A stretch of DNA of 64,000 nt from Candidatus Omnitrophota bacterium (lineage in GTDB: Bacteria; Omnitrophota; Gorgyraeia; Gygaellales; Profunditerraquicolaceae), in NCBI GenBank assembly GCA_050012075.1, contig JBEKHW010000003.1, positions 14,690 through 78,689 on the forward strand. Reading direction: 5' to 3'. A program made the position numbers and the translations under genes. The notes beneath the pieces were generated by a model. That model was not told the origin of the DNA and searched no databases. It saw nothing but the letters and a program-made list of their open reading frames with translations. Of the stretch, positions 16,747-46,163 are shown piece after piece (the first letter of the stretch is position 1; every line of letters starts with the position of its first letter).

Positions 16747-16758
16747 TGGGATAAAAGG

Positions 16759-19117: not shown

Positions 19118-19123
19118 TCCTCC

Positions 19124-20758: not shown

Positions 20759-20824
20759 GCTCTCTAAGTAGAGAGTAGACCACAAAATCCGGGTTTTGTC
20801 AAGAAGTTTTTAATGGAATGATTC

Positions 20825-21337
20825 CTAATCCAAAAGGATTTGGGAGATGGAAAATGCGGCTTCCAGGCCTGCGGTTTCCGGCTTACTGCTAAATTGAAGC
20901 CTTTTAATCTGCAGAAGCGCCAGGGAGGTCTCCACATCATAGATGAATTTCATAAAATCCTCTAATGCGCCTTCTGCCCTTAAATCAACGACTACTTCTT
21001 TGCTTCTGGTAGTGGCCTGAGGCCGTATATCAATTATACGAATATTGGCATCTTTGGCTAAGCTATCTAGCTCAGCAAGGGTTAGCGCCAAGGGGTTTTC
21101 CGCTATACCTTCAGGCGCATTTAATCTGCCGGTATATTTATTTTTAATCTGTTCCTTCTGGTTCAATAACCTTAGATATCTCTTTAGTTTACTCCGGGCA
21201 GTATTGATTTCTTTATTAAGCGCGGCATTCCTGCTTAAGAGTGGAGAAATAATAAAATTAAAACATACTGCTATCAGGAATACGGATACCGCCAGATATA
21301 AAATACCCCTCTCTCTTTTGTTCAGTACTTTTATCAT
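20825..21337 (-). CDS. PilO/GspM-like inner-membrane assembly protein
   Basis: 170 aa with a single N-terminal TM, a coiled coil and a C-terminal alpha/beta domain. It overlaps pilMN by 4 nt. Confidence 0.5.
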   Translation of the reverse strand: MIKVLNKRERGILYLAVSVFLIAVCFNFIISPLLSRNAALNKEINTARSKLKRYLRLLNQKEQIKNKYTGRLNAPEGIAENPLALTLAELDSLAKDANIRIIDIRPQATTRSKEVVVDLRAEGALEDFMKFIYDVETSLALLQIKRLQFSSKPETAGLEAAFSISQILLD

Positions 21338-22776: not shown

Positions 22777-22836
22777 TGCGTTCCATAAGTTTAGGCTTCA
22801 TTTTATACTATAACTTCTGTTTATCCAATTGCAAGA

Positions 22837-23775: not shown

Positions 23776-23780
23776 AGCAG

Positions 23781-24392
23781 TTATTTTATTTCAAGCGGCA
23801 CAGTCTTGTTAAACTCTACTAAATCTCCTCGTTTCTCTCCTTGCTGCAGGGTTAAGGTTATTTTAACGGCGATAGGCACGAGATTAAGCTGGCTTTCTTC
23901 GGGCCAGCTCTCCTGCCATTCATAAGGGCTAGAAGGGTTTCTCGTGGCATAGGCATAACGGAAAGAAAGTGCTTTTACATTGCCGCATATTTCATCCGGC
24001 AGTTGCGTAAGTGCCTCTACTTTTTTTAAAGAATCAATTCCTTTATAGCAGTAACGCCTTAAAATCCCGTCTACAAGTTCATACTTTATACGGCAGATAT
24101 CCGGGTTTAATTTACCGTTGGCGTATGTATCAAGTAAACTGATAAAATCCATGGAGCCGGCTGTCCCCTTAAAATGGGAATCATTCTGGGTATATTGAAA
24201 GGAATTTTTTAGATCCAATTCTATTCTGTTAAAGGCAATCCTTGCGTTTGTGGATACCTCAAATACGGAATCAGCCCTCTTATAGCTTGAAATCCCCGTC
24301 TGGAACGCCGAATACAAACTTAAAATAATAATAGTGGCGATTGACGATGCTATAAGAAGCTCAACAAGCGTAAACCCCTGTTTATTTCTCAT
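23781..24392 (-). CDS. Minor pseudopilin GspJ-like (prepilin-type N-terminal methylation domain)
   Basis: GFTLVELLIASSIATII prepilin motif. Confidence 0.55.
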   Translation of the reverse strand: MRNKQGFTLVELLIASSIATIIILSLYSAFQTGISSYKRADSVFEVSTNARIAFNRIELDLKNSFQYTQNDSHFKGTAGSMDFISLLDTYANGKLNPDICRIKYELVDGILRRYCYKGIDSLKKVEALTQLPDEICGNVKALSFRYAYATRNPSSPYEWQESWPEESQLNLVPIAVKITLTLQQGEKRGDLVEFNKTVPLEIK

Positions 24393-24754
24393 TTATTTAT
24401 AAGATAGGTTAAAAAATCCAGGGAATACTCCTCCTGCCTTTTTTGGGGCCATGAGACAGAGAAATGGAGTTCCTTGAGGTCAGGGATATCTGCTTCGGTT
24501 AAATCAGTTATATTGTAATTCCATTTAAATACGCCCTGCTGGCTGGTTACGTTTGGAAAACCTTTTTCTATCTCCCAGATTTTTTCTTCAGCTATATAAC
24601 AGGCGCGGCCTATATTTTGGGCAAATACCGCGGCAGATAGTGATGCGGTAAAGGAACGGAAGATAAAGACGATTGCCGTGCTCAAAATTGCCAGGGCAAT
24701 CAATACCTCCAGTAACGAAAACCCTCTATTCTTTTTTAATAGCAATTGTCGCAC
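24389..24754 (-). CDS. Minor pseudopilin GspI-like
   Basis: GFSLLEVLIALAIL prepilin motif, 121 aa. Confidence 0.55.
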   Translation of the reverse strand: MRQLLLKKNRGFSLLEVLIALAILSTAIVFIFRSFTASLSAAVFAQNIGRACYIAEEKIWEIEKGFPNVTSQQGVFKWNYNITDLTEADIPDLKELHFSVSWPQKRQEEYSLDFLTYLINK

Positions 24755-25205
24755 CTTTGATTGAGAGGCAAAATTTTTGCTGGTTACTGTTTTGGAAACA
24801 TATTATAGCATTATCCGCGCTTGAGTCAGGATAAAAATAAACTCCCTGTGTTTCTTCGGGCGTAATTGAAGAAATGCTGATGCCGCGGGGGGTTTCGTAT
24901 ACGCCTGAAAATCTTCCCTTTATTTTTTCTAACGTGCTCTCTTGCGTTACGTAATATGCCTGGAATTGCGCTTTCTCCTCATCGCGGTTTAACCCAAGGT
25001 AGAAAATTTTCTCTTGTGAGATGGCGCTTGACTGCAGGTAGCGTGATAAGTAATAGATTTCTTTAGTGAAATTCTCCAGCTCAAGGCTTGAGAATGTATT
25101 GCGGAATCTTGGAATTGATACCGTAGAGAGGACCCCTATAATAACTATTACGATAAGCAGTTCTATAAAGGTAATTCCGCGCCGCCATTTAATTGCAGAT
25201 GTCAT
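24726..25205 (-). CDS. Minor pseudopilin GspH-like
   Basis: GITFIELLIVIVIIGVL prepilin motif. Confidence 0.55.
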   Translation of the reverse strand: MTSAIKWRRGITFIELLIVIVIIGVLSTVSIPRFRNTFSSLELENFTKEIYYLSRYLQSSAISQEKIFYLGLNRDEEKAQFQAYYVTQESTLEKIKGRFSGVYETPRGISISSITPEETQGVYFYPDSSADNAIICFQNSNQQKFCLSIKGATIAIKKE

Positions 25206-25602
25206 CTTCGGCTTTGGTTTCGTCAGGTCCCTTGGAGCAAAGTTTATAATCCTTATCAGCGCTGCTGATCAGCTCATATTCATAATCCCTTCCCCAGGGG
25301 TCTTTGGGTTCTTTTTTCAGGTAAGGGCCTTTCCATCCGGCTACTCCGGGGTTTGTCCTTAACTCCTGTAAACTGTTAGGGAAATGCCCTGTATCCATTT
25401 CAAACATATCCAGGCCCAGGGCGATACTACCCTGTATATCAGATTTTGCCGCGGTAACACGCGCCTGCTCCGAGCGGCCGACAAGCCGCGGCATAACCAT
25501 TGCCGCAAGTATGCCTATGATGATTACGACGAGCATAAGTTCAATCAAGGTAAATCCGTTCGCGTTGTGGGTTGTGGGTTGTGGGTTGTGCGTTTTATTC
25601 AT
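25189..25602 (-). CDS. gspG: Type II secretion major pseudopilin GspG
   Basis: G|FTLIELMLVVIIIGILAAMVMPRL followed by the GspG-specific SDIQGSIALGLDMFEMDTGHFP. The leader (MNKTHNPQPTTHNANG) is unusually long. Confidence 0.8.
   Translation of the reverse strand: MNKTHNPQPTTHNANGFTLIELMLVVIIIGILAAMVMPRLVGRSEQARVTAAKSDIQGSIALGLDMFEMDTGHFPNSLQELRTNPGVAGWKGPYLKKEPKDPWGRDYEYELISSADKDYKLCSKGPDETKAEDDICN
25564..25591 (-). repeat. Heptanucleotide tandem repeat (GTTGTGG on plus, CCACAAC on minus), about 4 copies inside the gspG leader-peptide codons
   Basis: gttgtgg gttgtgg gttgtgg gttgtgc read directly from the sequence. It encodes HNPQPTTHNA. Confidence 0.8.
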
Positions 25603-25966
25603 TAGGGCCTCCTTCTACTGCTTGGATAAATTTATTAAGCTTTCTGCCTAGTTTATCATACTCTTCTAAGAAATACGCGTATTGTTCTTTATCCTGCATA
25701 GATTTCGTTCCAAATAATAACTGTAAATGTTCAATAGTTTCATTACATGAAGAATGTGCGAATATTAAGAATCTTGCATATTCTTGAGGATACTTCTTGC
25801 GCCCAAAACCCTCTACGATATTAGCTGAGATTGCCTTGGCTGATCTGCGTATCTGTGAACCTTCTTCATACATTTCTAATTGAGGCAACTTTAATGTCAT
25901 GCTATGTATCTCAACAGCTAGCTTGTGCGCAAGTTGGTATATTTCTAAATCGCTATAATTCTGCAT
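25595..25966 (-). CDS. Four-helix-bundle protein (TIGR02436 / 23S rRNA-intervening-sequence protein family)
   Basis: About 123 aa (MQNYSDLEIYQLAHKLAVEIH...SAKAISANIVEGFGR...ETIEHLQ). It sits between gspF and gspG. The ATG at 25966 is preferred over the track start. Confidence 0.7.
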   Translation of the reverse strand: MQNYSDLEIYQLAHKLAVEIHSMTLKLPQLEMYEEGSQIRRSAKAISANIVEGFGRKKYPQEYARFLIFAHSSCNETIEHLQLLFGTKSMQDKEQYAYFLEEYDKLGRKLNKFIQAVEGGPNE

Positions 25967-26017
25967 ATATATTTTTTCTACGCCTAACGCATGACGCATA
26001 ACGCCTAACGCACAACG

Positions 26018-27226
26018 CTATTTTACGATTAAGTTGATTTGGAAAATGGGCAGTAACATCGACAGGACAATAAACCCGACGACAATCCCCATTACCAGGA
26101 TTATCACCGGCTCAAGCAGCCGTGTCAGCGCCTTAATAGTCCTTTGGGTATCCTTTTCGTATTCATTGGCAATGCGTAAAAGCGATTTATCCAGAGAGCC
26201 GGTTTCTTCTCCGATCGCGGTTATATTAGTCACAAATTCCGGGAAAAGCCCGGAGTCCCTAAAACAGGTATACAGAGTTGCTCCGTCGGCAATCTTACTT
26301 TTGATTTTTTTCATTTCCTCTTTTAAAACCTGGTTATCCAATACCGTAGCTGATATATCAAGCGCGGAGGTAATCGGGATTCCGCTGCCAAGCAATAAAG
26401 AAAGCGTGCGGCTCAAGCGTCCTATTTCGGTCTTTAAAATAATCGGGCCAAAGAGCGTCATTTTCAGCTTGAACCTGTCTACGGATAACCTTCCCTGCGG
26501 GCTGCGGTATAGCCGCTGGTATACGAAAATCAATAGTGAAACCATGATGATGATAAGCCACCAGTAACCGCGTATAAAAGCCGAAGTAGAAATCAGGAGT
26601 TGCGTGGGTAAAGGCAGGGCTTGTCCCATATCTTCAAACATACTTACGAGGCGTGGTATGACGAATACCAGTAACACTATTACGGTAGCGATACCTACGC
26701 AAAGGACAAAAAGCGGGTAAGTTAAACTCGCACGCAGGGAATTCCTGAATTCGTCCTGCTCCTCCAGGAAATCGGAAAGCTCCTTAAGGGCGCTGTTTAA
26801 TTTACCGCTGGACTCTCCCGTGTGCAGTATAGAAGTATATAAATCAGAGAAAGTATTTCTATGAGTGGATAAACTTTCTGAAAGCGAGCTGCCGTTCCTG
26901 ATTTTGTCAATGACGTCTTTGAGTAATTCTTTTAAATACCTGTTATCGGTTTGTTTGGTGAGGATATTAAGGGCGTTGACTATGTTTATCCCTGAATCTA
27001 TCAGACTTGAAAGCTGCCGGGTAAAAAGCACAAGGTCCTTGCTTGAAACTTTTTTGAAGCCAAATGTTTTTTTGGATGCCAGGGCAAGGGTTGTGGGAGT
27101 TACCGAGACAGGAAAAAGCTGCATCCCGGACAATTTATGAATGGCGTCCTGTTCTGATTCTGCTTCTATCTCTCCTTGGATAATTTTATTCGGCGCGGAT
27201 TTTGCGGTATAGGTATATGTGGGCAT
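26018..27226 (-). CDS. gspF: Type II secretion / T4P inner-membrane platform protein GspF/PilC
   Basis: 402 aa with two T2SSF repeats and three TM helices. Confidence 0.85.
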   Translation of the reverse strand: MPTYTYTAKSAPNKIIQGEIEAESEQDAIHKLSGMQLFPVSVTPTTLALASKKTFGFKKVSSKDLVLFTRQLSSLIDSGINIVNALNILTKQTDNRYLKELLKDVIDKIRNGSSLSESLSTHRNTFSDLYTSILHTGESSGKLNSALKELSDFLEEQDEFRNSLRASLTYPLFVLCVGIATVIVLLVFVIPRLVSMFEDMGQALPLPTQLLISTSAFIRGYWWLIIIMVSLLIFVYQRLYRSPQGRLSVDRFKLKMTLFGPIILKTEIGRLSRTLSLLLGSGIPITSALDISATVLDNQVLKEEMKKIKSKIADGATLYTCFRDSGLFPEFVTNITAIGEETGSLDKSLLRIANEYEKDTQRTIKALTRLLEPVIILVMGIVVGFIVLSMLLPIFQINLIVK

Positions 27227-27228
27227 GC

Positions 27229-28947
27229 TTATTCAGGAAGTTCTTCCTGTTGCGTGACGCGGATTACCTCGGTAAGCGTAGTCAGCCCCTTGGCGACCTT
27301 CTGCAGGCCGTCGTGGCGCAATGTGCGCATACCTTGGGATATGGCTTTCTGTTTTATCTGCTGGCTGGAGGCATGGGTTAAAATCAATTCGCGGATCGGC
27401 TCGGTAATGGTAATGATTTCATAAATGCCTGTCCTGCCGCGATAGCCCGTAAACCTGCATTCCTCGCAACCTTTGCCTTCATAAAATTCTATTTTGTGCG
27501 CGTCAAAAGACAACTCTTTGATCTGCGCCAGTATTTCTTCGCTGGGTTTTACAGGGGTTTTGCAATGCTGGCAGATAAGCCGCACCAGCCGCTGGGCAAT
27601 AAGGCATTCTAAAGATGAGGATACAAGGAACGGCTCAATCCCCATATCCAGTAACCTGGTTACTGCTCCTGCCGCGTCATTGGTATGTAGTGTCGAGAAA
27701 ACCAGGTGGCCGGTAAGAGCAGACCTTATGGCAATCTCGGCGGTTTCGTAATCCCTTACCTCTCCTACCATCATTATGTCAGGGTCATGCCTTAACATGT
27801 GGCGCAGCGCCACCGCAAAAGTGAATCCGATTTGCGGATTTACCTGAATTTGGTTAACGCCCCGCAACTGATATTCAATAGGGTCTTCTATGGTGATGAT
27901 TTTTACTGCCGCGGAATTTAGCTGCGCCAGGGACGCATACAGCGTCGTGGATTTTCCTGAGCCAGTCGGCCCGGTGACAAAGATTATTCCGTGCGGTTTC
28001 TTGATTACTTCTCTTATTATCTTAAGGTCCTCGGGAAACAGGCCCAATTTTTCAAGCTCGAGGAAGAAACGTGAACCAAGGATTCTGATATGCACTGCCT
28101 CTCCGAAAGCAGTAGGAAGTGTAGAGACACGTAAATCAACCTCTTCGTCATTGACCCTTATTTTTATCCTTCCATCCTGCGGCATCCTGCGTTCAGCTAT
28201 ATTAAGCTTAGCCATGATTTTTACGCGCGAGACGATTGCCGGGTGGAAATATTTTATGGTCTCTGGTATGTTTATATCATAAAGCACGCCGTCAATCCTG
28301 AACCTGCTGCGTAATTCATTCTGAAATGGCTCAAGGTGAATGTCGGTTGCCCTGTCTTTGATTGCCTCTGATAGCACCTGGTTTACAAACTTGATAATCG
28401 AGGCGTCTTCCGCAAGGGCCTCCAGGTTTAAGTTCTCGGCGGTGTCCGTTGACATCTTTAACTCTTCTGTAGGCGGCTTCTGCGCAATCATCTTCTCCAG
28501 GGTCTCGGCACCTACGCCGTAATATTTACGTATTGCCTCGAGGATTTCTATTTCACTTGCCAGGACACCCTTTATCTCAAACCCTAAGAGCAGGCGGATA
28601 TCATCAAGGGTCCGTATATCCAGGGGGTTTGTCATGACAATAGTCAGGACATTATCCTCAAATTTTAAAGGTATTATTTTATAGTGGCTGGCGAATTTCG
28701 CGGGAACCTTCTGGATAACCAGCGGCTCAATATCCTTATCCGCAAGCTTTACGTAAGGGATATTTAAGTGGCGGGAAAGCAGGTTAAATATCTTTTCTTC
28801 CGAGGCAAATCCGAGCTTGACTAAGGTGGTACAGATGAATTCCCCTGTTTTACGCTGCTCTATGAGCCCTACTTCAAGCTGCTCCGGGGTAATTACCCCC
28901 TCTTCTACCAGGAATTCTCCTATAAGTATATCGTCTCTTTCCGGCAT
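27229..28947 (-). CDS. gspE: Type II secretion ATPase GspE
   Basis: 572 aa with a T2SSE N-terminal domain, Walker A GPTGSGKST, Asp box, Walker B, His box, and a tetracysteine CQHC...CEEC. Confidence 0.85.
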   Translation of the reverse strand: MPERDDILIGEFLVEEGVITPEQLEVGLIEQRKTGEFICTTLVKLGFASEEKIFNLLSRHLNIPYVKLADKDIEPLVIQKVPAKFASHYKIIPLKFEDNVLTIVMTNPLDIRTLDDIRLLLGFEIKGVLASEIEILEAIRKYYGVGAETLEKMIAQKPPTEELKMSTDTAENLNLEALAEDASIIKFVNQVLSEAIKDRATDIHLEPFQNELRSRFRIDGVLYDINIPETIKYFHPAIVSRVKIMAKLNIAERRMPQDGRIKIRVNDEEVDLRVSTLPTAFGEAVHIRILGSRFFLELEKLGLFPEDLKIIREVIKKPHGIIFVTGPTGSGKSTTLYASLAQLNSAAVKIITIEDPIEYQLRGVNQIQVNPQIGFTFAVALRHMLRHDPDIMMVGEVRDYETAEIAIRSALTGHLVFSTLHTNDAAGAVTRLLDMGIEPFLVSSSLECLIAQRLVRLICQHCKTPVKPSEEILAQIKELSFDAHKIEFYEGKGCEECRFTGYRGRTGIYEIITITEPIRELILTHASSQQIKQKAISQGMRTLRHDGLQKVAKGLTTLTEVIRVTQQEELPE

Positions 28948-28967
28948 AAAAACTCCTTGAATGAAAT

Positions 28968-38139: not shown

Positions 38140-39600
38140 TTATTTAAGAATAATCATTTGCCAGGGCCAATCTTTCTTGAGATACCCTGAAGCTATCCTT
38201 GCCGCATTTCTACCTAAAGTAGCCACGCCGGAAATACCGCCCTCTCCCCCTATACCCGAAGTGCACCAATGCCCGGCTAAAATGAGGCCCTCTAAAGATG
38301 AAAGTTGCGGCACCAGTTTAGAGCTGATTTGTTCCAGGGTTGACTCCCATCCGTAAATCGCGCCATTATGATTAAGGGTATACCTATAAAAGGTATAGGG
38401 GCTCGCCCCTTCCATTACATCAACATGTTCATCTTTTAATCCGGGAATTATCTTCTTTACCTTTTGGAACATTTTGGCGATCAATTCGGTTTTTTGCTGT
38501 TTCCAGAAATCTTTTGACTCAAAAGGGGCATTTATTAGCGCCTGTATGGTATTAGAACCAAGTTTAACCGATTCATCATGCAAAGATGGGAAATATACTA
38601 AAATATACGGGAGCTCTTTTTCAAGCAGGTTTTTATTTAATGAGGAAAGCAATCCTATTATGTCGTAAGAGCCGATATGCCATATATTACACTCTTCTTT
38701 TATTAAGCTACTTAAATCAACGTTTATTCCTATATATAATGCCGCGGCAGAAGAAGAAGCTTTTAAGGATTCAACTACTGAAGATTCTTTTGTATCCTCG
38801 TCGGATAGCAGGTTTTTATAGGTTAAGGTAGCATCGGCACCTGAAACAACAATCCGGGAATTCAGGGTTCTTCCATCTTCTAATAGAACGCCGGTGACTT
38901 TTTTCTCCTTAGTGACAATTTTTGTGACTTTGGCGGATAAAATAAGCTCTCCTTTGTTTTTTTTAAGTTTATTGACAAGGGTATCAGTAAATGCCTGGAT
39001 TCCTCCAGCCGGGTAATATCCGGGGTCAAGTATAAATTCTTTAAGGAATATAACGCCGGCTAGAGCTGAAGTTTTGTCAGGCGAGGTCCCCATATTCGCT
39101 AAAAGAGCGCTTAAGGTTGCCTTGATTCTATCATCATTAAAATAGCTATTTAAGAGGCTACTAAAGGTCAGATTGGCTATTTCCGTGCGGATAGCCAGGA
39201 TATTTTCCTTCAGGATTTTTGTAAAGAATTTCTCAATATTCAGTTTTTCTTCAGGAAAGCTTTTCTTGAATTCTTCGATAGTGTCAAAAGGGGATGCCCT
39301 TACGTAGGTTACGTTATCAGGCATTATAATTTTGTCGGTAGGGTCGAATTGCTTAAATTTGAGTTGCTTTTTTAGGTCGAGCTCATCCAGGATTACGCTT
39401 AATGTCCCTCGCTTAACCGAACCAAGATAATGGACGCTGGTATCAAACCTGTATTTTCCTCTGGAAAAAGAGGTGCAATAACCTCCGGGGGTATGATGTT
39501 GCTCTATAATTAAAACATTAAATCCTAATTCAGACAGGTAACAACCGCAGGTTAACCCCCCTATCCCCGCCCCGATTATAATTACGTCGTATTTATCCAT
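38140..39600 (-). CDS. CrtI-family FAD-dependent oxidoreductase (paralog)
   Basis: YDVIIIGAGIGGLTCG motif, 486 aa. Confidence 0.75.
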   Translation of the reverse strand: MDKYDVIIIGAGIGGLTCGCYLSELGFNVLIIEQHHTPGGYCTSFSRGKYRFDTSVHYLGSVKRGTLSVILDELDLKKQLKFKQFDPTDKIIMPDNVTYVRASPFDTIEEFKKSFPEEKLNIEKFFTKILKENILAIRTEIANLTFSSLLNSYFNDDRIKATLSALLANMGTSPDKTSALAGVIFLKEFILDPGYYPAGGIQAFTDTLVNKLKKNKGELILSAKVTKIVTKEKKVTGVLLEDGRTLNSRIVVSGADATLTYKNLLSDEDTKESSVVESLKASSSAAALYIGINVDLSSLIKEECNIWHIGSYDIIGLLSSLNKNLLEKELPYILVYFPSLHDESVKLGSNTIQALINAPFESKDFWKQQKTELIAKMFQKVKKIIPGLKDEHVDVMEGASPYTFYRYTLNHNGAIYGWESTLEQISSKLVPQLSSLEGLILAGHWCTSGIGGEGGISGVATLGRNAARIASGYLKKDWPWQMIILK

Positions 39601-39648
39601 ATTGGCATTATAGGTTATAAATTATATTTATTATAGTTTATAACTTAT

Positions 39649-40209
39649 TTAATAAATTTCAAAGCTTAATTTAGCGTCCAGGCTATCCGTAATTTTCTTC
39701 AATGTCAGTAAAGAAATATTCTCTCTTCCTGATTCAATACGCGATATTACCTGTTGGGAAATTTTTAACCTTTTTGCCAGCTTGTTTTGGGTTAAGCCAT
39801 TTTGCACGCGCACAGCTTTAATCTTGTCCGCCACTAATTTGCAGAATTCGTTCTCCGGTCTTAACGCAAAATTATTTTTGGGGATAAGCAGGCCTTTAGC
39901 CTTGTGTTTTTCCCGCAATTTCTCGTATATGGCCTGCCAGAATTCAATTCTCGGGTCATTCCATGCATTTTTGCGCATTTGCCTCTTTATCGCATTCCAA
40001 TTATTCACAAAAATAGCGGGTTTTAGATAAACGTTAAAAACCTCTTTCGGGGAATTTTTCCTGGATAACAACAGGGATGCCAAAGATAAAAAATGGGCGT
40101 GTTTTGCGTCCTTTAATATTGCCTTGCTCATACGCAAGGAAATATTCCTGTCCCAAAGCCAATCGTTTTTAATATTAGCTTTCTGTAATCTTTTCGACAA
40201 TTTTATCAA
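39649..40209 (-). CDS. XRE-family HTH protein (candidate antitoxin/regulator partner of the upstream nucleotidyltransferase)
   Basis: C-terminal HTH NGLTQNKLAKRLKISQQVISRIESGR. The start overlaps the upstream gene by 35 nt, and an internal Met is possible. Confidence 0.55.
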   Translation of the reverse strand: MIKLSKRLQKANIKNDWLWDRNISLRMSKAILKDAKHAHFLSLASLLLSRKNSPKEVFNVYLKPAIFVNNWNAIKRQMRKNAWNDPRIEFWQAIYEKLREKHKAKGLLIPKNNFALRPENEFCKLVADKIKAVRVQNGLTQNKLAKRLKISQQVISRIESGRENISLLTLKKITDSLDAKLSFEIY

Positions 40210-40906
40210 CCTCTTTCTTAAAATGACGTTCTATTTCAGGGTAATTTATATCTTTTTTTATTTTTAGTTCCAGCAGGCCTGTTTTTACCTCGAAACGGCT
40301 ATATGTCCTGAACCACCTGATAATGGATTCGCGTATTAACTGATTGCCGTATCGAAAGGAAAAATCAGACAAGCGCATAAAAATCTGCGACAGGCAGTAT
40401 AAGTCATAAAAATCCTTTGCTTCCTGCCTGCCGCCTTCTGAAATCTTCCTGCCTATATAGTCAGTCGTTTGATGGGTGCCGGTAGCAGCATAAATTTTCC
40501 TCAGATAAATATCCTCTAAAGATAGAATATTAATCCCGTTAACCGATTTAAACGGTTTTATGCAATCCAGGTAGTCCTCAATAAAATCTATCTTTAAGGT
40601 ATCCTTTCTATCTATAACAAGGGAATAAACCAATATTTTTATCTTTCCTTTACGCGATTCCTCAGATATTAATTTAATTTTTCTATTTAAAGAAGCCGAA
40701 AGCGCCGTGATTATCTCTACTATCCTTTTTTTGCTGAAATCCTTTGTAAAGAAATCCAGGTCGAGCGATTCCCTGTGGTTAAAATAAAACAGAGAAAGCG
40801 CTGTTCCCCCGCCCAAATAGAAATCGTCAATTCTTCCAGTAAGGGCTTTTAATACCTTATTTTGCGCCTCTATAATTTTAGGTAGCATACCCAATATATA
40901 CAGCAT
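40175..40906 (-). CDS. Nucleotidyltransferase, AbiEii/AbiGii toxin family (DUF1814-like)
   Basis: LGGGTALSLFY...SLDLDFF minimal nucleotidyltransferase motif, 243 aa. Confidence 0.65.
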   Translation of the reverse strand: MLYILGMLPKIIEAQNKVLKALTGRIDDFYLGGGTALSLFYFNHRESLDLDFFTKDFSKKRIVEIITALSASLNRKIKLISEESRKGKIKILVYSLVIDRKDTLKIDFIEDYLDCIKPFKSVNGINILSLEDIYLRKIYAATGTHQTTDYIGRKISEGGRQEAKDFYDLYCLSQIFMRLSDFSFRYGNQLIRESIIRWFRTYSRFEVKTGLLELKIKKDINYPEIERHFKKEVDKIVEKITES

Positions 40907-40969
40907 AAAAGTTGTTTTGTCAAGTATTTTTACAACTTTCCTGCTGTTATTTATAGAGTGTATTTTATA

Positions 40970-42268
40970 TTAAACCTTACGGAATACCGCGGCGGCGTTG
41001 TAGCCGGCAAAGCCGCAGGAGAGTTTCATTACGGTGGTAAGCTTTTTATTTTGTTGTTTACGGATAAGGTTTATGTTGTAGCGGCTGTCAAAATCATCGC
41101 AGTTTAAAGAAGCGGGGATTATCCCGTTTTGTAGCGCAAGGATCAGGATTATTGACTCAAGGATTGCGCTACCACCCAGGTTATGGCCCACATAGGGTTT
41201 AAACGCGGAAACAGGGGTTTTATTGCCGAACATATTCGTAATTGCCTTTGCTTCGTATTGGTCGGTTATTTTGATACCTACACCGTGGGGGTTGATTAAA
41301 TCTATATCTTGCGCTTTAATTTCACTATTTTTAAGAGCTCCCTCTATTGCTTTCCCGTAAGAATTACTTATCGGGTTAGGTAATATCAGCTTCCAGCCCT
41401 CAAGAGAGAATCCACCTCCCGTATATTCAGCATAAATATTGGCTCCTCTTTTTTTGGCATGATTCAACTCTTCAAGAAGAATGGCAGAGTATCCTTCGCC
41501 GAAAACTATCCCGTCTGCATTCTTGGAGAAGGGCTTAATCTTTCCGTCTTCAGCGTAAAGATTGCGTTCTTTAAACCATAGGTGTTTAAGCATGCCGGCA
41601 GGGTTATCCCCCCCTGCGATAATCGCTACGTCGGTATCTTTAAATTTGATTTGCGTGTAAGCGGCATCCAGGGCAAAAAGCCCGGAGGCACAGGCATTAT
41701 TGGTAAACAGGGAGTATCCGCGAAAGCCCATTGCCTTTGCTACCAGATATAGGTACATAAAGCTTTGCAGCTCCTGGCCGTAATCGGAAAACTTGCTGAA
41801 AAGGTGCTGATAGAAACCAAACTCCGACGGATTTTCCTTAAGCCGGGATTTTTCCTTAAAATAGTTTAATCCTTCTTTGGTGAGAGATTCGCAGAATGGC
41901 TCAAAGCCCGGGTGCTCTATTGTCAGGAAAAAGCCTATATTGTTATCATCACGGTTATAATCCAATCCGCTGTCTTTTAACGCTAGTTGAGTAGCGGCTA
42001 AAGGGTAAAGAAAATCATTATCTTCTCTTCCCTGCCTGAAGCCGGAGATTTCTTTGAGCACCTCTTTATCTATGCCGAAATTATTTATGTTAAAATCCTT
42101 AATCTTATGCATCCAGAAGCTGTCCCACAATTGCTTATCCAGGAAAATCTCTTCTTTATGAAGCCCGGATTTTTCCCCAAGGATAGATTTCCACAAAGCT
42201 TCTTTACCAAAACCAATGGCGCATAGCGGCCCCAATCCTGTTATTACAACTCTTCTTTCTTTAGGCAT
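40970..42268 (-). CDS. Beta-ketoacyl-[ACP] synthase family protein (active-site Cys present, atypical N-terminal insert)
   Basis: NNACASG (Cys), HGVG and VGHNLG (His) motifs. Confidence 0.75.
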   Translation of the reverse strand: MPKERRVVITGLGPLCAIGFGKEALWKSILGEKSGLHKEEIFLDKQLWDSFWMHKIKDFNINNFGIDKEVLKEISGFRQGREDNDFLYPLAATQLALKDSGLDYNRDDNNIGFFLTIEHPGFEPFCESLTKEGLNYFKEKSRLKENPSEFGFYQHLFSKFSDYGQELQSFMYLYLVAKAMGFRGYSLFTNNACASGLFALDAAYTQIKFKDTDVAIIAGGDNPAGMLKHLWFKERNLYAEDGKIKPFSKNADGIVFGEGYSAILLEELNHAKKRGANIYAEYTGGGFSLEGWKLILPNPISNSYGKAIEGALKNSEIKAQDIDLINPHGVGIKITDQYEAKAITNMFGNKTPVSAFKPYVGHNLGGSAILESIILILALQNGIIPASLNCDDFDSRYNINLIRKQQNKKLTTVMKLSCGFAGYNAAAVFRKV

Positions 42269-43472
42269 ATTTTTTAATCACAAGGGTAGCATTGTTTCCG
42301 CCGAATGCAAAGCCATTTTTTAAGGCGATGTTTACCTTTTTCTTTCTGGCAACGTTGGGGACGCAGTCAATATCGCATTCAGGGTCTGCTTCCTCAAAAT
42401 TTATAGTCGGCGGGATAATATCTTCTTTTACCGACAGGCAGCAGGCAGCCGCTTCGATTACAGAAGCAGCTCCCATCGCATGGCCAAGCGCTGATTTTAA
42501 GGCGGTCACCGGGATATCTCTATAGCGCTCCTTAAACACATTTTTTATGGCAAGGCACTCTGTTTTATCGTTAAGAGTGGTCCCTGTGCCGTGGGTGCTG
42601 ATATAATCCACGTCTTTATAACTTATATTACTTTCCCGCATCCCCTTCTCTATTGCTTTTGCTATACCTTCGGCGCTTGGGGCGGTAGGATGAAAGGCAT
42701 CGCAGGAGAGACCGTAACCTAATATTTCCGCGTAAATTGGCGCGTTTCTTTTTAAAGCCGAATCCAGGTCTTCAAGTAGCAGGGCTCCTGCCCCTTCACT
42801 TAACATCATACCTTTCCTGTTTTTATCAAAGGGCTGGCATTTTTCAGGCGCCATGGCATAAATACGCTGAAACCCCGCAAAGGCAAAATAAGAAAAAGAA
42901 TCACTGCCCCCGCAGAGAGCAAAATCAAGCTCTCCGTTTTTTATAAGATCGAAGCCATAACCGATAGCATAATTTCCCGCGGCGCAGGCAGTAGGAAAAA
43001 GGTAATTCGGTCCCTTAATCTTAAAATGCAGGCCTACGTTGGCGGAGATATTGTTGACCCCGGACTGCATTATTCTTTGCCTGTCCACATCCTTAAGCCC
43101 TCCCTTTGCCCAAACCTGCATCAGCTCTTCAAGCGGCTTTTCTCCGTTTGTAGTCCCCATAAAAACTCCGGTTTTTGATTTCGGCAGATTTTTCAGGGGA
43201 AGCATCGCGTCAGTTATGGCTAAAGAGGAAGCGGCAATGGCAAATTGCGAAGCCTTGCCCAGGAATTTTATTCTCCTTTTCGGGATAAATTCTTCCGGCT
43301 TGAAATTTCTTACCTCTCCTCCCCTATGGCACCTGAAGGCGCTGGTATCAAAACTGGTTACTTCGCTTATCCCGGATTTACCGGAAATGACAGAACGCCA
43401 GAATTGCTCCTTGCCGATTCCTACGGACGAAACAACTCCTATACCAGTAACTACTACTCTCCTTTTATCCAT
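42261..43472 (-). CDS. Beta-ketoacyl-[ACP] synthase II-like (FabF-like)
   Basis: TACAAG Cys, STHGTGT and LGHAMGAA His motifs. It overlaps both neighbours. Confidence 0.8.
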   Translation of the reverse strand: MDKRRVVVTGIGVVSSVGIGKEQFWRSVISGKSGISEVTSFDTSAFRCHRGGEVRNFKPEEFIPKRRIKFLGKASQFAIAASSLAITDAMLPLKNLPKSKTGVFMGTTNGEKPLEELMQVWAKGGLKDVDRQRIMQSGVNNISANVGLHFKIKGPNYLFPTACAAGNYAIGYGFDLIKNGELDFALCGGSDSFSYFAFAGFQRIYAMAPEKCQPFDKNRKGMMLSEGAGALLLEDLDSALKRNAPIYAEILGYGLSCDAFHPTAPSAEGIAKAIEKGMRESNISYKDVDYISTHGTGTTLNDKTECLAIKNVFKERYRDIPVTALKSALGHAMGAASVIEAAACCLSVKEDIIPPTINFEEADPECDIDCVPNVARKKKVNIALKNGFAFGGNNATLVIKKYA

Positions 43473-43908
43473 TTTTTGGTTTAACCCCGAAAGTTAAACT
43501 TGCCTTTGCCACTAGTTTATCCCCGACACGCGCGACGGCGTCAACCACTCCTGCGGTATCCATAACTTTCACGCAAGATACTTCCAGAATAAGTTTATCT
43601 CCCGGAAACACTGGCGCCCTGAATTCAGCTTTTACCCTGCCCAGGTAATAAATGGGATGCGCCTCGGCGATTTTGGGCTTACGCACATAATAAAGGATTA
43701 TTGCAGTTTGGGCCATTGCTTCTACGATAAGCACCCCAGGCATAACGGGATTGCCTGGAAAATGGCCGCGGAAAAAATCTTCATTATGCCTAACATACTT
43801 TGCCGCTGTTACTTTATCCTGGTTCTCGACCGCTATTACTTCGTCTATAAGCAGGAATGGGTCGCGGTGCGGAAGGATTGTTTTTATTTTTTCTTTATCC
43901 CAGAGCAT
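43465..43908 (-). CDS. 3-hydroxyacyl-[ACP] dehydratase FabZ-like
   Basis: [11 protein letters not shown]...[20 protein letters not shown]. Confidence 0.8.
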
Positions 43909-43913
43909 ACTCG

Positions 43914-44159
43914 TTACTCCTTTTTGGCGTTTTTAAAATAATCAATTATTTGTTTCAAATTCCTGATTTTGGGGATATCTTTCTCCGGAACGATAATCTT
44001 ATACTTTTTTTCAAAAGCAGCCACAATCTCAATTGCCTTAAGTGAATCTACTCCAAGCTCTGTAAAGAAATCCGCCTCGGGAGTAAGCTTTTCAACCGGC
44101 ACCTCGGTAATCTCTGAAACCATCTGCGTTAGTTCTAAATCAATATTCTCGTTCGCCAT
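43914..44159 (-). CDS. Acyl carrier protein
   Basis: 81 aa with the LGVDSL phosphopantetheine attachment motif. Confidence 0.8.
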
Positions 44160-44170
44160 TTTTTTCTCCC

Positions 44171-45418
44171 TTAGCTGTGGGTATGCCGGGATATGACGGC
44201 AGAGGCGTTATTGCCTCCCGGCCCAAAATTATTGATTAAAATATTATCGACTTTACACTTGCGCGCGCCTGTAGTGACATAATCAAGGTCGCAGTCATCA
44301 TCTTTTTCTTTGTAATTTATGGTCGGAGGTATAAAACCCTGCTCAATGCTCCCTAACGAAGAGATAATCTGGAATATCCCGGAGGCGCTAAAACTTTCTC
44401 CGATCATGGACTTGATGGCGCTGACCGGTATTTTTAAGGCAGCGCTGTTAAACACTTCTTTTATTGCCATAGTCTCCAGTTTATCCTGTATGACTACGGA
44501 ATTAGCCGCCGCGTTTATATAACTTATTTTTTCTTTATCTATACCGGAGTTATTTAAGACGGAAGAAATGCAATTTTTCAGGCCCTCTGCTTCAGGAGAA
44601 TATTTTCCGCTACGGTAAGCGTCAAAGCAGCTTTTTGTGCTTTTTATGCTCGCGTAAATCTTTGCCCCTCTTTTTAAGGCGTCGTCTTCGTTTTCAATCA
44701 GGATAACGCCGGCGCCTTCTCCTAAAATAATCCCGTTCCTGCGCTTGTCAAACGGGCAGCATATTTCTTCTCCTTTTATTCCGGCAAGGAATTCAATTTT
44801 ATGGAATCCGGCAAAACTCTGAAAAGACAATCCCTCAAGCCCGGCGAGCAGTATCGCCTTTGCCTTACCCCACTTTATAAAGTCAACGGCGTATTTTAAG
44901 GCATCTAAGCTTGCGGTAAATCCGGTAGATATAGTGGTGTTAAAACCTTTAATCTTAAACCAGATGGAGACCTGGCTTGAAGGCGCGTTCATTGTGGTGG
45001 CGGGAAATATAGCCGGGTTTACGAATTGAGGGCCGTCCTGTTCCGCCTCTTTACTGAATTCCGCTATATTCCACATTGCCGATAAAGTCGTTGCCGTAAC
45101 TACACCTATATCATCAGTATTACCTTCATTAATGTTGAGATTTGCGTCATCAAGGCAGAGTTTTACCGCGGAGCATAGGAACCTGGTGCTGCGGTCAAGG
45201 TTACGTAGCCCCTTGGGCCCCAGAAATTTTTCCGCTTCAAAATCAGGCACTTCCCCGGCAAGGTGCGCTTTAAAAAGCACCGGGTCAAATACGGTAATCG
45301 GCCTTATTCCTGAGCGGCCTTCTTTTAAGGCCTGCCAGAACTCTTCTTTGCCTATCCCGATAGGCGATACTACCCCTATGCCGGTTATAACCGCTTTATT
45401 ACTAGCAGAATTATCCAC
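44171..45418 (-). CDS. Ketosynthase-like protein lacking the catalytic Cys and both His residues (chain-length-factor-like)
   Basis: It aligns to the KS fold, but the active-site positions read STGFTAS (Cys to Phe), INAAANS (His to Ala) and IGESFS (His to Glu). Confidence 0.75.
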   Translation of the reverse strand: MDNSASNKAVITGIGVVSPIGIGKEEFWQALKEGRSGIRPITVFDPVLFKAHLAGEVPDFEAEKFLGPKGLRNLDRSTRFLCSAVKLCLDDANLNINEGNTDDIGVVTATTLSAMWNIAEFSKEAEQDGPQFVNPAIFPATTMNAPSSQVSIWFKIKGFNTTISTGFTASLDALKYAVDFIKWGKAKAILLAGLEGLSFQSFAGFHKIEFLAGIKGEEICCPFDKRRNGIILGEGAGVILIENEDDALKRGAKIYASIKSTKSCFDAYRSGKYSPEAEGLKNCISSVLNNSGIDKEKISYINAAANSVVIQDKLETMAIKEVFNSAALKIPVSAIKSMIGESFSASGIFQIISSLGSIEQGFIPPTINYKEKDDDCDLDYVTTGARKCKVDNILINNFGPGGNNASAVISRHTHS

Positions 45419-46163
45419 TTTGTATTGATAACCCTCCGTCGATAACTAATGTTTGTCCTGTGATATAATTTGCCGCGTCACTTATCAGGAATTTTACTGC
45501 TTTCGCCACTTCTTCAGGCCTGCCGAATCTTCTTAAGGGTATATGTTTCATCAGCCCATCTTTCAGTGGTTCTTTGAGTCCGCTTACCATATCGGTTTCA
45601 ATGAAACCAGGGGCAACAGCATTTACCCTTATCCCGTATTTAGCTACTTCCCTTGCCAGGGATCTGGTAAAGCCGATTATCCCTGCTTTTGACGCGGCAT
45701 AATTGGTTTGCCTGGCAACCCCTGTTATCCCGCTTATCGAAGATATATTCACGATTATGCCGCTGTTTTGTTTTATCATGCCGGTTATTACCGCGCGGGT
45801 AAGGTTAAAAACACCTCCGAGGTTAGTGTCTATCACTTTCTGCCAGTCATTTTTTTCCATAAATGCCAGCGCCTTATCGTTGATTATCCCGGCATTATTT
45901 ATTACGATATCAAGCCCGCCGAAAGTTTTCTTTGTTTCTTCAACCCAGGCCGTAACGGCGTCAAAATCGCTGATATCTACGCGTGATGCCTTGGTTTTTA
46001 TTCCTAACCGCGTAATCTCGGCTAAAAGTTTATCCGCCTCTTCTTTATTATTCAGGTAGCTAAAGGCAATATTCAGGCCTTGGCGGGCTAACTCCAATGC
46101 AATCTGCCTGCCTATGCCCCTGCTTGCCCCGCTTACAATCGCTATTTTATTTTTTAAGTCCAT
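45411..46163 (-). CDS. fabG: 3-oxoacyl-[ACP] reductase (SDR)
   Basis: IAIVSGASRGIGRQIA, NNAG, and a YAASKAG catalytic triad. Confidence 0.85.
   Translation of the reverse strand: MDLKNKIAIVSGASRGIGRQIALELARQGLNIAFSYLNNKEEADKLLAEITRLGIKTKASRVDISDFDAVTAWVEETKKTFGGLDIVINNAGIINDKALAFMEKNDWQKVIDTNLGGVFNLTRAVITGMIKQNSGIIVNISSISGITGVARQTNYAASKAGIIGFTRSLAREVAKYGIRVNAVAPGFIETDMVSGLKEPLKDGLMKHIPLRRFGRPEEVAKAVKFLISDAANYITGQTLVIDGGLSIQSG

What the first reader, a model, noticed from the sequence alone, without database searches (positions are those of the whole stretch)
39649..40906. AbiEii-family nucleotidyltransferase plus HTH protein inserted in the middle of the lipid operon
A DUF1814/AbiEii-like nucleotidyltransferase (LGGGTALSLFY...DLDFF) overlaps by 35 nt an XRE-HTH protein. 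The pair sits between the KS genes and the CrtI-like genes, with roughly 50-60 nt gaps on either side. The order is reversed relative to canonical AbiEi-AbiEii, where the antitoxin comes first. It may be a toxin-antitoxin or abortive-infection module that integrated into the biosynthetic operon, or a nucleotidylating regulator of the pathway.
Basis: partly seen in the sequence, partly recalled or inferred. Interest (0 to 1): 0.55.

Follow-up and report, generated by a model that had tools for sequence, protein, structure and literature searches.

The report
Self-regulated toxin–antitoxin-like pair in lipid operon
A two-gene module, an AbiEii/MenT-type nucleotidyltransferase followed by a DNA-binding partner with its own promoter and operators, has landed between two genes of a lipid/polyketide operon in an Omnitrophota bacterium; it looks like a variant toxin–antitoxin module and not a part of the pathway.

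Summary
On the minus strand, a DUF1814/AbiEii nucleotidyltransferase (40175-40888) is followed by an overlapping gene (39649-40200). That gene encodes an unannotated six-helix N-domain plus a C-terminal XRE HTH. All four AbiEii catalytic motifs are intact, and so is the serine equivalent to the MenT3 phospho-site.

The pair is a conserved unit. The same order and adjacency occur in 84 of 85 related loci, almost all Omnitrophota. Many of these loci also share a promoter with two palindromic operators and a leaderless-type start.

In orthologous clusters the flanking KS/CLF and CrtI-like genes abut or overlap, so the pair is an insertion here. It is not a recent foreign arrival: third-position GC is normal and divergence tracks the flanking genes. 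Close relatives carry the pair at other slots of the same neighbourhood. Other TA modules (canonical AbiE, Phd/ParE) occupy equivalent slots, one at this same junction.

No operator copies lie elsewhere in the window, so a role as pathway regulator is unsupported.

Best reading: an autoregulated, reverse-order DUF1814 toxin–antitoxin-like module with a new type of partner. It is a new variant of a known kind, of moderate-to-low interest. Toxicity and target are untested.

The parts
40932..40947 (-). Distal operator-like palindrome. It reads ACAGCAGGAAAGTTGT, one mismatch from the family consensus ACAAC-N6-GTTGT.
   Evidence: pattern search. (same position relative to TTGACA in relatives). (38 of 82 loci have two such sites 31-32 bp apart).
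40918..40923 (-). -35 hexamer TTGACA of the module's own promoter.
   Evidence: Read. TTGACA is present at the equivalent place in 64 of 82 loci. The automatic sigma-70 scan did not list it, because the -10 TATATA fails its rule requiring T at position 6.
40900..40915 (-). Proximal operator-like palindrome ACAACTTTTATGCTGT (one mismatch). It fills the -35/-10 spacer and touches the -10.
   Evidence: The variant half-sites co-vary between the two sites of a locus.
40895..40900 (-). -10 hexamer TATATA, 17 nt after the -35 and 6 nt before ATG 40888. This geometry implies a leaderless or near-leaderless transcript.
   Evidence: Searches show the same geometry in relatives. The transcription start itself is inferred.
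40175..40888 (-). DUF1814/AbiEii-MenT-type nucleotidyltransferase, 237 aa (the ORF is open back to ATG 40906). Key residues:
- L25-G26-G27-x15-D43-L-D45
- R39
- S41
- K131
- K158-D159-x-x-D162
   Evidence: Pfam PF08843. Weak PADLOC AbiEii hits. Invariant columns. AF2 model with pLDDT 87.6. Foldseek matches to JHP933, MenT3 and MenT1. Motif definitions from PMC3985639 and PMC11375011.
39649..40200 (-). Partner protein, 183 aa, TTG start, overlapping the NTase gene by 26 nt.
   Evidence: P0241, 183 aa. Adjacent and in the same order in 84 of 85 loci.
39898..40167 (-). Family-specific six-helix N-terminal domain of the partner (residues 12-101). Conserved stretches are DWLWD, LLLSRKN and IKRQMRK..WN.PRIEFWQ.
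   Evidence: No hit in Pfam, NCBIfam, PADLOC, PHROGs or PDB sequences. AF2 pLDDT is about 90. 18 of the 26 invariant columns lie in this domain. Only 94 clusters at 50% identity in 1.84 billion proteins match, and the domain is always N-terminal.
39682..39849 (-). C-terminal XRE/Cro-C1-type helix-turn-helix domain of the partner (residues 118-173).
   Evidence: Pfam HTH_3. Foldseek matches to C.BclI, HipB and C.Esp1396I.
39610..39648 (.). AT-only inverted repeat (17-nt arms, 5-nt loop) directly after the partner's stop codon. A TATAAT lies 6 nt before the CrtI-like ATG at 39600. It is not conserved in relatives.
   Evidence: I1. (-7.5 kcal/mol, z -1.6, weak). (the downstream sequence is not conserved between loci).
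40970..42268 (-). Context: the KS/CLF-type ketosynthase, last of the KS genes. In relatives it overlaps the next CrtI-like gene directly.
38140..39600 (-). Context: the first CrtI-like/amine-oxidase flavoprotein, immediately downstream of the pair.

Best explanation
The pair is a self-contained, autoregulated two-gene module of the DUF1814 (AbiEii/MenT) nucleotidyltransferase toxin–antitoxin kind, in a lineage-specific variant centred on Omnitrophota.

Shown from sequence:
- The NTase gene comes first. It is read from its own TTGACA-N17-TATATA promoter, which ends 6 nt before the ATG.
- The partner gene overlaps the NTase gene.
- Two palindromes (ACAAC-N6-GTTGT) lie 32 bp apart. One sits upstream of the -35 and the other fills the spacer.
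- This whole unit is conserved across about 80 genomes.

Inferred:
- Dimers of the partner's XRE HTH bind the two palindromes and repress the operon.
- The partner's conserved helical N-domain binds the NTase and keeps it inactive. This may work by inducing auto-phosphorylation of the invariant Ser41, as shown for MenT3 and AbiEii.
- When the partner is lost or displaced, the NTase nucleotidylates an RNA target and arrests translation. By analogy with MenT the target would be tRNA 3' ends.

In this genome the module sits at a junction (KS/CLF | CrtI-like) that is a direct gene overlap in relatives. It is therefore a passenger in the operon, not a pathway component.
For: Family and catalytic competence:
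- Pfam AbiEii at 66.6 bits.
- Exact hG[GS]x15DhD with the motif-II Arg, the motif-III Lys and the +DxxD pentad, all invariant in 38 homologues (definitions).
- R-x-S-x-D-x-D with an invariant Ser at the MenT3 S78 position.
- The predicted fold matches JHP933 (E 4e-11), MenT3 (about 1e-6) and MenT1.

Module unity:
- NTase followed by the partner, adjacent, in 84 of 85 loci. 54 of these overlap by 4 nt.

Autoregulation architecture:
- The promoter and operators are conserved at DNA level. A 25-mer is exact in 16 loci.
- Two sites sit in fixed register in 38 of 82 loci.
- Variant half-sites are matched between both sites of a locus.
- The HTH resembles R-M controller proteins and HipB.

Insertion:
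- CLF and the CrtI-like gene overlap directly in L006/7, L009/10, L008 and L092.

TA-like behaviour of the slot:
- A canonical AbiEi_4-AbiEii pair sits at the same junction in L013.
- Other AbiE pairs occur in L006 and L009.
- Phd/ParE sits in the HK|RR slot in L092.

Conflict-system flavour:
- In some relatives the partner is extended by Mrr_cat, TPR and PIN domains.

No link to the pathway:
- No operator copies occur elsewhere in the 64 kb beyond chance.
Against: - No experiment exists. Toxicity, neutralisation, DNA binding and the NTase target are all inferred by analogy.
- The partner is not an AbiEi/MenA homologue, so the neutralisation mechanism may differ.
- The distribution is not that of a typical mobile TA:
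  - The best 80 genome hits each come from a different genome.
  - There are no relatives in IMG/VR and only 26-28% identical hits on plasmids.
  - Third-position GC is normal.
  - Divergence tracks neighbouring genes (r 0.65-0.75).
  - In close relatives the pair stays in one chromosomal neighbourhood, next to histidine kinase, response regulator and HD-GYP genes.
- The partner is as conserved as the NTase, which is unusual for an antitoxin.
- Both operators in this window carry one mismatch.
Confidence: 0.6

Rival explanations
1. The pair is a vertically inherited, non-toxic regulatory device of this Omnitrophota lineage. The NTase reversibly nucleotidylates its partner (or a neighbouring signalling protein), and the partner controls transcription. 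The link would be to the adjacent 7TM-GAF histidine kinase / response regulator / HD-GYP signalling genes, not to conflict.
For: - The pair appears single-copy among the best 80 genomes.
- Identity to the window tracks the flanking core genes. In L001 the NTase is 68% identical and the partner 66%, against 59-67% for the flanking genes. In L036 the values are 52% and 46% against 40-56%. Pairwise r is 0.65-0.75.
- In about 9 genomes the next gene is a response regulator, histidine kinase or HD-GYP gene: L001, L004/14, L011, L016, L019, L030, L036, L055 and L078.
- Absent from viral contigs and plasmids.
- The partner is unusually conserved.
- Precedent: in HEPN-MNT systems the NTase modifies its partner (PMC7641770, abstract).
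Against: - More distant homologues (<55% identity) sit in unrelated contexts.
- Related genomes with the same synteny lack the pair in those slots (L006, L009, L092) or carry other TA modules there.
- The operator occurs only in the pair's own promoter.
- The long forms fuse the partner to nuclease domains typical of conflict systems.
- All characterised DUF1814 NTases are toxins acting on tRNA.
Confidence: 0.17
2. The pair is a phage-defence (abortive infection) system in which the partner is the sensor/effector scaffold and the NTase its regulator or co-effector. The window would hold a minimal form of the longer N-domain-HTH-Mrr_cat-TPR-PIN systems.
For: - L074 and L086 carry the NTase immediately followed by 755-aa and 1204-aa partners. 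These combine the N-domain, HTH, Mrr_cat, TPR (L086 only) and, in L074, a PIN-TPR-GreABC-type PIN domain.
- Five further such fusions occur among the representatives.
- The partner's HTH domain hits PADLOC HTH families such as capH, control protein and RmrA.
Against: - The window's partner has no effector domain.
- Most family members (170-190 aa) lack one as well.
- No defence island surrounds the pair in the window.
- No phage data exist.
Confidence: 0.13
3. The pair is a dedicated regulator of the lipid/polyketide operon. The HTH would control the CrtI-like genes, and the NTase would modify a pathway protein or intermediate.
For: - The pair lies inside the operon with no predicted terminator on either side.
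- AbiEii-type pairs recur in or beside this cluster in four genomes: the window, L006, L009 and L013.
Against: - Those other pairs belong to a different subfamily (25% identity, AbiEi_4-like partner) and sit at different junctions.
- Orthologous clusters L008 (as far as the contig reaches), L091, L092 and L093 have no AbiE-type pair.
- About 70 of 80 genomes carry the pair with no KS genes within 10 kb.
- No operator sites lie near other genes of the cluster.
Confidence: 0.05

Closest known systems
AbiE (AbiEi-AbiEii) of Streptococcus agalactiae / Lactococcus (Dy et al. 2014, PMC3985639; reclassified as type VII in bioRxiv 10.64898/2026.01.19.700257)
   Same: - DUF1814 NTase with motifs I-IV.
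- Bicistronic, overlapping genes.
- The promoter is covered by two inverted repeats, which suggests negative autoregulation by the DNA-binding partner.
- The serine in the R-x-S-x-D-x-D loop is conserved.
   Different: - The partner is not AbiEi. AbiEi has an N-terminal winged HTH plus a C-terminal domain (COG5340). Here there is a new helical N-domain plus a C-terminal XRE HTH.
- The gene order is reversed.
- The NTase has family-specific insertions (residues about 137-153 and about 171-200, absent from the AbiEi_4-linked NTases).
- PADLOC AbiEii scores are weak (31 bits or less).
MenAT systems of Mycobacterium tuberculosis (MenT1/MenT3/MenT4; PMC7450476, PMC10435456, PMC11375011)
   Same: - The predicted fold matches MenT3 and MenT1.
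- The catalytic loop carries a Ser at the S78-equivalent position.
- It is a two-gene module.
   Different: - Only 11-13% sequence identity.
- The MenA antitoxins are unrelated to the partner here and are encoded upstream.
- tRNA modification has not been tested here.
JHP933 of Helicobacter pylori (PDB 4O8S/4OK0)
   Same: It is the best structural and sequence match in the PDB. It is a DUF1814 NTase domain plus a helical domain.
   Different: About 15-18% identity, no XRE partner described, and function unknown.
abiEii-HTH_XRE and abiEii-higA pairs counted in silico in Pseudomonas aeruginosa (PMC9424990)
   Same: An AbiEii-family NTase paired with an XRE-type HTH protein instead of AbiEi. The authors flagged these as uncategorised.
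   Different: They are uncharacterised, and no N-domain or gene order is reported. Their relation to this Omnitrophota family was not tested.
Reverse-order type II TA modules (HigBA, MqsRA) and R-M controller (C) proteins
   Same: The toxin or effector gene comes first. The XRE-HTH partner resembles C.BclI, C.Esp1396I and HipB. Two operators overlap the promoter.
   Different: The toxins and effectors are unrelated to NTases.

Membership tests
DUF1814 / AbiEii NTase superfamily (PF08843) | Match to the family profile above the curated threshold | tested here: met
   PF08843 at 66.6 bits against a 22.5 cut-off, covering residues 27-237.
DUF1814 / AbiEii NTase superfamily (PF08843) | Motifs I+II, hG[G/S]x15DhD, with the motif-II arginine (Dy 2014) | tested here: met
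   L25-G26-G27, 15 residues, D43-L44-D45, and R39 four residues before D43. All are invariant in 38 homologues.
DUF1814 / AbiEii NTase superfamily (PF08843) | Motif III: a lysine among hydrophobic residues (KLxAaxxR-like) | tested here: inconclusive
   K131 is invariant (RKIYA). There is no Arg at +7, because an insertion follows. The invariant R154 may substitute for it.
DUF1814 / AbiEii NTase superfamily (PF08843) | Motif IV: the +DxxD pentad | tested here: met
   K158-D159-F-Y-D162. D159 and D162 are invariant.
DUF1814 / AbiEii NTase superfamily (PF08843) | Pol-beta-like NTase fold plus helical domain, as in JHP933 and MenT3 | tested here: met
   AF2 model with pLDDT 87.6. Foldseek gives 4o8s at E 3.7e-11, 6j7r and 6y5u at about 1e-6, and 8an4 at 1e-4.
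AbiE toxin-antitoxin / abortive infection system | Partner is AbiEi (COG5340: N-terminal winged HTH plus C-terminal domain) | tested here: not met
   No AbiEi Pfam or PADLOC model is hit. The partner has an unannotated N-domain and a C-terminal XRE HTH. It shows no meaningful alignment with the AbiEi_4-like partners of L006 and L009.
AbiE toxin-antitoxin / abortive infection system | The regulator/antitoxin gene precedes the NTase gene | tested here: not met
   The NTase comes first in the window and in all 84 loci where both genes are seen.
AbiE toxin-antitoxin / abortive infection system | Bicistronic operon whose promoter is covered by paired inverted repeats (autoregulation) | tested here: met
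   The genes overlap. Two palindromes bracket the -35 and fill the spacer, and they are conserved and co-varying across loci. Binding itself is not testable here.
AbiE toxin-antitoxin / abortive infection system | NTase toxic, neutralised by the partner; phage protection | not testable with these tools
   This needs expression and phage assays.
MenAT-type (type VII-like) regulation | Conserved Ser/Thr in the catalytic loop that is auto-phosphorylated on antitoxin binding | tested here: met
   S41 in R39-E-S41-L-D43 is invariant in 38 homologues and in the second AbiEii subfamily. MenT3 has R76, S78 and D80. Phosphorylation itself was not tested.
Mobile TA module (general) | Patchy distribution, multiple copies, presence on mobile elements, compositional anomaly | tested here: inconclusive
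   For:
- Position varies among relatives.
- The pair is absent from syntenic slots in L006, L009 and L092.
- Other TA modules occupy the same slots.

Against:
- One locus per genome among the best 80.
- None in IMG/VR or plasmids.
- Third-position GC is normal.
- Divergence tracks the flanking genes.
XRE / Cro-C1 HTH regulators (PF01381) | HTH_3 profile match and five-helix fold | tested here: met
   HTH_3 at 53.4 bits. Foldseek TM about 0.75-0.8 to C.BclI, HipB and C.Esp1396I, normalised to the target.

The most novel reading that the evidence does not exclude
The NTase plus 'N-domain-HTH' pair may define an undescribed DUF1814 conflict or regulatory system that is near-core in a large part of Omnitrophota. 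In this reading the unannotated six-helix N-domain is the NTase's docking or modification target. It would act as a switch controlling either DNA binding alone (the short forms, as here) or fused Mrr-like and PIN nucleases (the long forms). The NTase would then be a regulator of its partner and not, or not only, a tRNA-directed toxin.
Probability: 0.2. Interest if true: 0.6.

Novelty: new variant of a known kind. Interest (0 to 1): 0.35.

Why it matters
- For annotating the cluster, the pair should be treated as a passenger. The lipid/polyketide pathway is FabG-KS-ACP-FabZ-KS-CLF plus CrtI-like genes, without the pair.
- For TA and defence biology, it adds a well-delimited DUF1814 subfamily. 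The subfamily has about 220 species-level genomes, reversed gene order, a leaderless promoter with two co-varying operators, and a partner domain absent from every library I could search. PADLOC-style rules that require AbiEi would miss it.
- The invariant Ser41 makes the recently proposed 'antitoxin-induced auto-phosphorylation' model directly testable with a completely different antitoxin.
- Different TA modules land repeatedly at the same operon junctions in Omnitrophota. This is a small but clean example of permissive insertion slots in streamlined genomes.

Tried and rejected
- **KS/CLF scan of genome contigs.** A single-sequence scan found no relatives. I replaced it with a homologue search plus contig look-ups.
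- **Promoter and terminator scan.** The sigma-70 scanner did not flag the module promoter, because TATATA fails its rule requiring T at position 6. I identified the promoter by cross-locus conservation instead. No convincing terminator flanks the pair.
- **Insertion footprints.** There are no tRNA genes in the window. The only flanking direct repeat is a 21-nt AT-rich element at 76-81% identity (D1), too weak to call a target-site duplication.
- **Mobile-element origin.** No relatives appear in IMG/VR. Plasmids hold only two distant AbiEii hits at 26-28% identity.
- **RNA elements.** Rfam found nothing in 38000-42500.
- **Same-family test.** The AbiEii pairs in L006 and L009 are not the same family as the window's pair. 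They share 25% identity and have a different partner.
- **Compositional evidence for foreign origin.** Rejected for the pair, whose third-position GC is 0.40-0.45 against a window mean of 0.45. Neighbouring genes are truly anomalous.
Full report
**1. What is there**

The window comes from a Candidatus Omnitrophota MAG. The NTase is 100% identical to an NCBI/JGI protein named as such. All credible genes in the 64 kb are on the minus strand.

At the flagged coordinates there are two overlapping ORFs: 40175-40906 and 39649-40209.
- The first hits Pfam PF08843 (AbiEii) at 66.6 bits and has weak hits to many PADLOC AbiEii models.
- The second has an XRE-type HTH_3 domain at its C-terminus. Nothing is recognisable in its first ~120 residues in Pfam, PADLOC or NCBIfam.

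The neighbours, in minus-strand order, are FabG, KS, ACP, FabZ (ApeI/ApeP-like), KS, KS/CLF, [the pair], two CrtI-like flavoproteins, and a 7TM-GAF histidine kinase.

Two refinements come from homologues:
- The NTase starts at ATG 40888, giving 237 aa. Relatives are 238 aa.
- The partner most likely starts at TTG 40200, giving 183 aa. This matches the JGI call P0241, and a GAGG lies 9 nt upstream. The overlap is then 26 nt.

**2. The NTase is a catalytically intact DUF1814 enzyme**

Dy et al. 2014 define the family motifs. The protein carries:
- L25-G26-G27-x15-D43-L-D45, which is exactly hG[G/S]x15DhD
- the motif-II arginine, R39
- the motif-III lysine, K131
- the +DxxD pentad, K158-D159-F-Y-D162

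All are invariant in an alignment of 38 homologues.

The loop R39-E-S41-L-D43 places an invariant serine where MenT3 has S78. That residue's antitoxin-induced auto-phosphorylation silences MenT3 and, per a 2026 preprint, AbiEii.

An AF2 model (pLDDT 87.6) matches JHP933 (E 4e-11), MenT3/TglT (about 1e-6) and MenT1. JHP933 is also the best PDB hit for the sequence profile.

**3. The pair is a conserved unit with a novel partner**

Contexts of close NTase homologues and a scan of 185,579 species genomes show how widely the pair occurs. The scan found 224 relatives. The best 80 loci each come from a different genome, nearly all Omnitrophota or bins likely mislabelled as Planctomycetes.

I compared window ORFs against the ORFs of all loci.
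- The NTase is followed immediately by the partner in 84 of 85 loci. The 85th ends at a contig edge.
- The overlap is 4 nt in 54 of these loci.
- The 'reversed' order is therefore the family rule.

The partner's N-terminal half is the more conserved half. It holds 18 of the 26 invariant columns, with motifs DWLWD, LLLSRKN and IKRQMRK..WN.PRIEFWQ. AF2 predicts a six-helix domain (pLDDT about 90), a disordered linker and the HTH.

Foldseek against the PDB matches only the HTH half, to C.BclI, HipB and C.Esp1396I. The N-domain alone has no significant PDB, PHROGs or Pfam match. In 1.84 billion representative proteins it matches only 94 clusters, always at the N-terminus, usually of 170-190 aa proteins.

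A minority are long fusions: N-domain, HTH, Mrr_cat nuclease, then TPR and/or a PIN domain of the 'PIN-TPR-GreABC' type. Two of these (L074, L086) sit directly after the NTase. This gives the family a biological-conflict flavour.

**4. The module has its own promoter and operators**

I aligned the upstream regions of the loci by eye. This shows a DNA-level conserved block:
- [ACAACTTAAAAGTTGT], then aaaaatac, then TTGACA, then aa, then [ACAACTTTTATGTTGT]ATATT
- 6-9 nt later, the ATG

A 25-mer from this block is exact in 16 loci.
- 38 of 82 loci have two ACAAC-N6-GTTGT sites (one mismatch or fewer) 31-32 bp apart. They sit in fixed register to the -35, at +8 and -23/-24.
- 64 of 82 loci have TTGACA.
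- Loci without this sequence have other palindromes at the same two positions. The variant is matched between the two sites of a locus, for example ACCAAT..ATGGT twice in L089. This co-variation argues for real operators recognised by the co-evolving HTH.

The -10 lies 6-9 nt before the ATG, which implies a leaderless or near-leaderless NTase mRNA. This is an inference.

In the window the elements are:

| Element | Coordinates |
|---|---|
| Distal site | 40932-40947 |
| -35 | 40918-40923 |
| Proximal site | 40900-40915 |
| -10 | 40895-40900 |

Each site has one mismatch. Apart from one chance-level match there is no further copy in 64 kb (3 found, 0.9 expected, 8 of 100 shuffles reach 3). The HTH therefore most likely regulates only its own operon. 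Sequence downstream of the partner's stop codon is not conserved, so the module ends there.

**5. Insertion, but not a recent foreign one**

Orthologous clusters found through the KS/CLF protein show CLF overlapping a CrtI-like gene directly:
- L006/L007: 4 nt
- L009/L010: 8 nt
- L092: 44 nt
- L008, the closest relative: about 32 nt, and the overlapping gene is the orthologue of the window's second CrtI-like gene (66% identity)

Relative to these clusters, the pair, and possibly the first CrtI-like gene as well, lies in an opened junction.

The pair nevertheless does not look newly imported.
- Its third-position GC (0.40-0.45) is normal for the window (mean 0.45, sd 0.06). Several neighbouring genes are true outliers.
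- Its identity to homologues tracks that of flanking core genes. In L001 the NTase is 68% identical and the partner 66%, against 59-67% for the flanking genes. In L036 the values are 52% and 46% against 40-56%. Pairwise r is 0.65-0.75.
- In close relatives the pair sits in the same ~50-kb syntenic neighbourhood but at other slots:
  - HK-[pair]-RR-HD-GYP-MGDG synthase (L001, L036, L055)
  - HD-GYP-[pair] (L011, L016)
  - after the 303-aa protein (L015)
  - between the lipoyl protein and a polyketide-cyclase gene (L003/L012)
  - two genes downstream of the CrtI-like genes (L013)
- No relatives were found in IMG/VR, and plasmids hold only distant AbiEii hits.

**6. The same slots collect other TA modules**

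- L013 has a canonical-order AbiEi_4-like plus AbiEii pair exactly between CLF and the CrtI-like genes.
- L006 has an AbiEii plus AbiEi_4-like pair between the histidine kinase and response regulator upstream of FabG.
- L009/L010 has one between FabG and KS. These NTases are only 25% identical to the window's, and their partners are unrelated.
- L092 has Phd/ParE between the histidine kinase and the response regulator.
- L091 and L093 have none.

Different selfish-type modules landing in equivalent intergenic slots fits permissive insertion sites. It does not fit a functional tie between NTases and the pathway.

**7. Interpretation**

Best reading (confidence about 0.6): an autoregulated, reverse-order DUF1814 toxin–antitoxin-like module.

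| Step | Status |
|---|---|
| Family, motifs and fold | Shown |
| Conserved pair and order | Shown |
| Conserved, co-varying operators overlapping the promoter | Shown |
| Absence from orthologous junctions | Shown |
| Repression by the HTH | Inferred |
| Neutralisation through the N-domain, possibly by Ser41 auto-phosphorylation | Inferred |
| RNA/tRNA as the target | Inferred |

Rivals:
- A vertically inherited, non-toxic regulatory pair linked to the neighbouring signalling genes (0.17).
- A defence system in which the partner is the scaffold or effector and the window holds a minimal form (0.13).
- A pathway regulator (0.05).

**8. Comparison and novelty**

It works like AbiE/MenAT but is not an AbiE system by definition. 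The AbiEi partner and the antitoxin-first order were both tested and not met.

AbiEii paired with XRE-type proteins has already been counted in silico in Pseudomonas aeruginosa (PMC9424990) without characterisation. No paper found describes the N-domain or this Omnitrophota family.

I rate it a new variant of a known kind. Interest is 0.35. It is ordinary as a TA-like passenger in an operon. Three features lift it slightly: the clean operator architecture, the unannotated partner domain, and the near-resident behaviour in Omnitrophota.

Noticed in passing
window 29059-38129 (genes 29059-29523, 29787-32072, 32109-32741, 36588-38129): Several genes just downstream of the pair are strong low-GC outliers. 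Their GC is 0.30-0.36 and third-position GC 0.24-0.29, against a window gene mean of 0.43 and 0.45. One of them is the second CrtI-like gene. The pair itself is not an outlier at third positions. This looks like a variable or acquired block.
   Followed up: partly
window 36588-39600; L006, L009, L013, L092, L008: The CrtI-like genes after the KS/CLF gene differ greatly between genomes, at 26-46% identity where the KS genes are 60-65% identical. Their number also varies: one in L006, L009 and L092, two in the window and L013. In the closest relative (L008), the gene overlapping CLF is the orthologue of the window's second CrtI-like gene.
   Followed up: partly
L013:436-1879: A canonical-order AbiEi_4-like plus AbiEii pair of another subfamily sits at the same KS/CLF | CrtI-like junction in a related Omnitrophota MAG. 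That MAG also carries the window-type pair about 8 kb downstream.
   Followed up: yes
L006:3462-4716; L009:4616-5885; L092:15094-15623: Other TA-type modules occupy other junctions of the same syntenic region. AbiEii plus an AbiEi_4-like partner (NTase first) lies between HK and RR in L006 and between FabG and KS in L009. Phd/ParE lies between HK and RR in L092.
   Followed up: partly
L074:8010-10277; L086:10693-14307: Long forms of the partner lie directly after the NTase. They combine the N-domain, XRE HTH, an Mrr_cat nuclease, TPR (L086 only) and, in L074, a PIN domain of the 'PIN-TPR-GreABC' type.
   Followed up: partly
window 40970-46163 and related loci: The cluster (FabG, KS, ACP, a FabZ with ApeI/ApeP-like signatures, KS, KS/CLF) resembles aryl-polyene-type type II systems. 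It is shared by Omnitrophota and Nitrospirota MAGs at 55-65% CLF identity. It is usually framed by 7TM-GAF histidine kinases and response regulators.
   Followed up: no
window 17246-34303: A block with type II secretion / type IV pilus-like genes and low-GC genes separates the histidine kinase (34392-36575) from the response regulator, HD-GYP, MGDG synthase and acyltransferase genes (12297-17133). In L006, L009 and L036 these genes are contiguous.
   Followed up: no
window 39601-39648: The first CrtI-like gene has a TATAAT ending 6 nt before its ATG. This is the same leaderless-type geometry as the NTase promoter. An AT-only 17-bp inverted repeat precedes it.
   Followed up: partly
window 1-64000: Every gene-like ORF of at least 120 aa across the whole 64-kb window is on the minus strand. 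ARAGORN found no tRNA or tmRNA gene.
   Followed up: no
L001:5944-6593 and L001:1180-2235: In a relative, a small NTP_transf_5/DUF6036-like NTase with a 53-aa companion, and a Fic-domain gene, lie within a few kb of the pair. This hints that these neighbourhoods collect small nucleotidyl-transfer modules.
   Followed up: no
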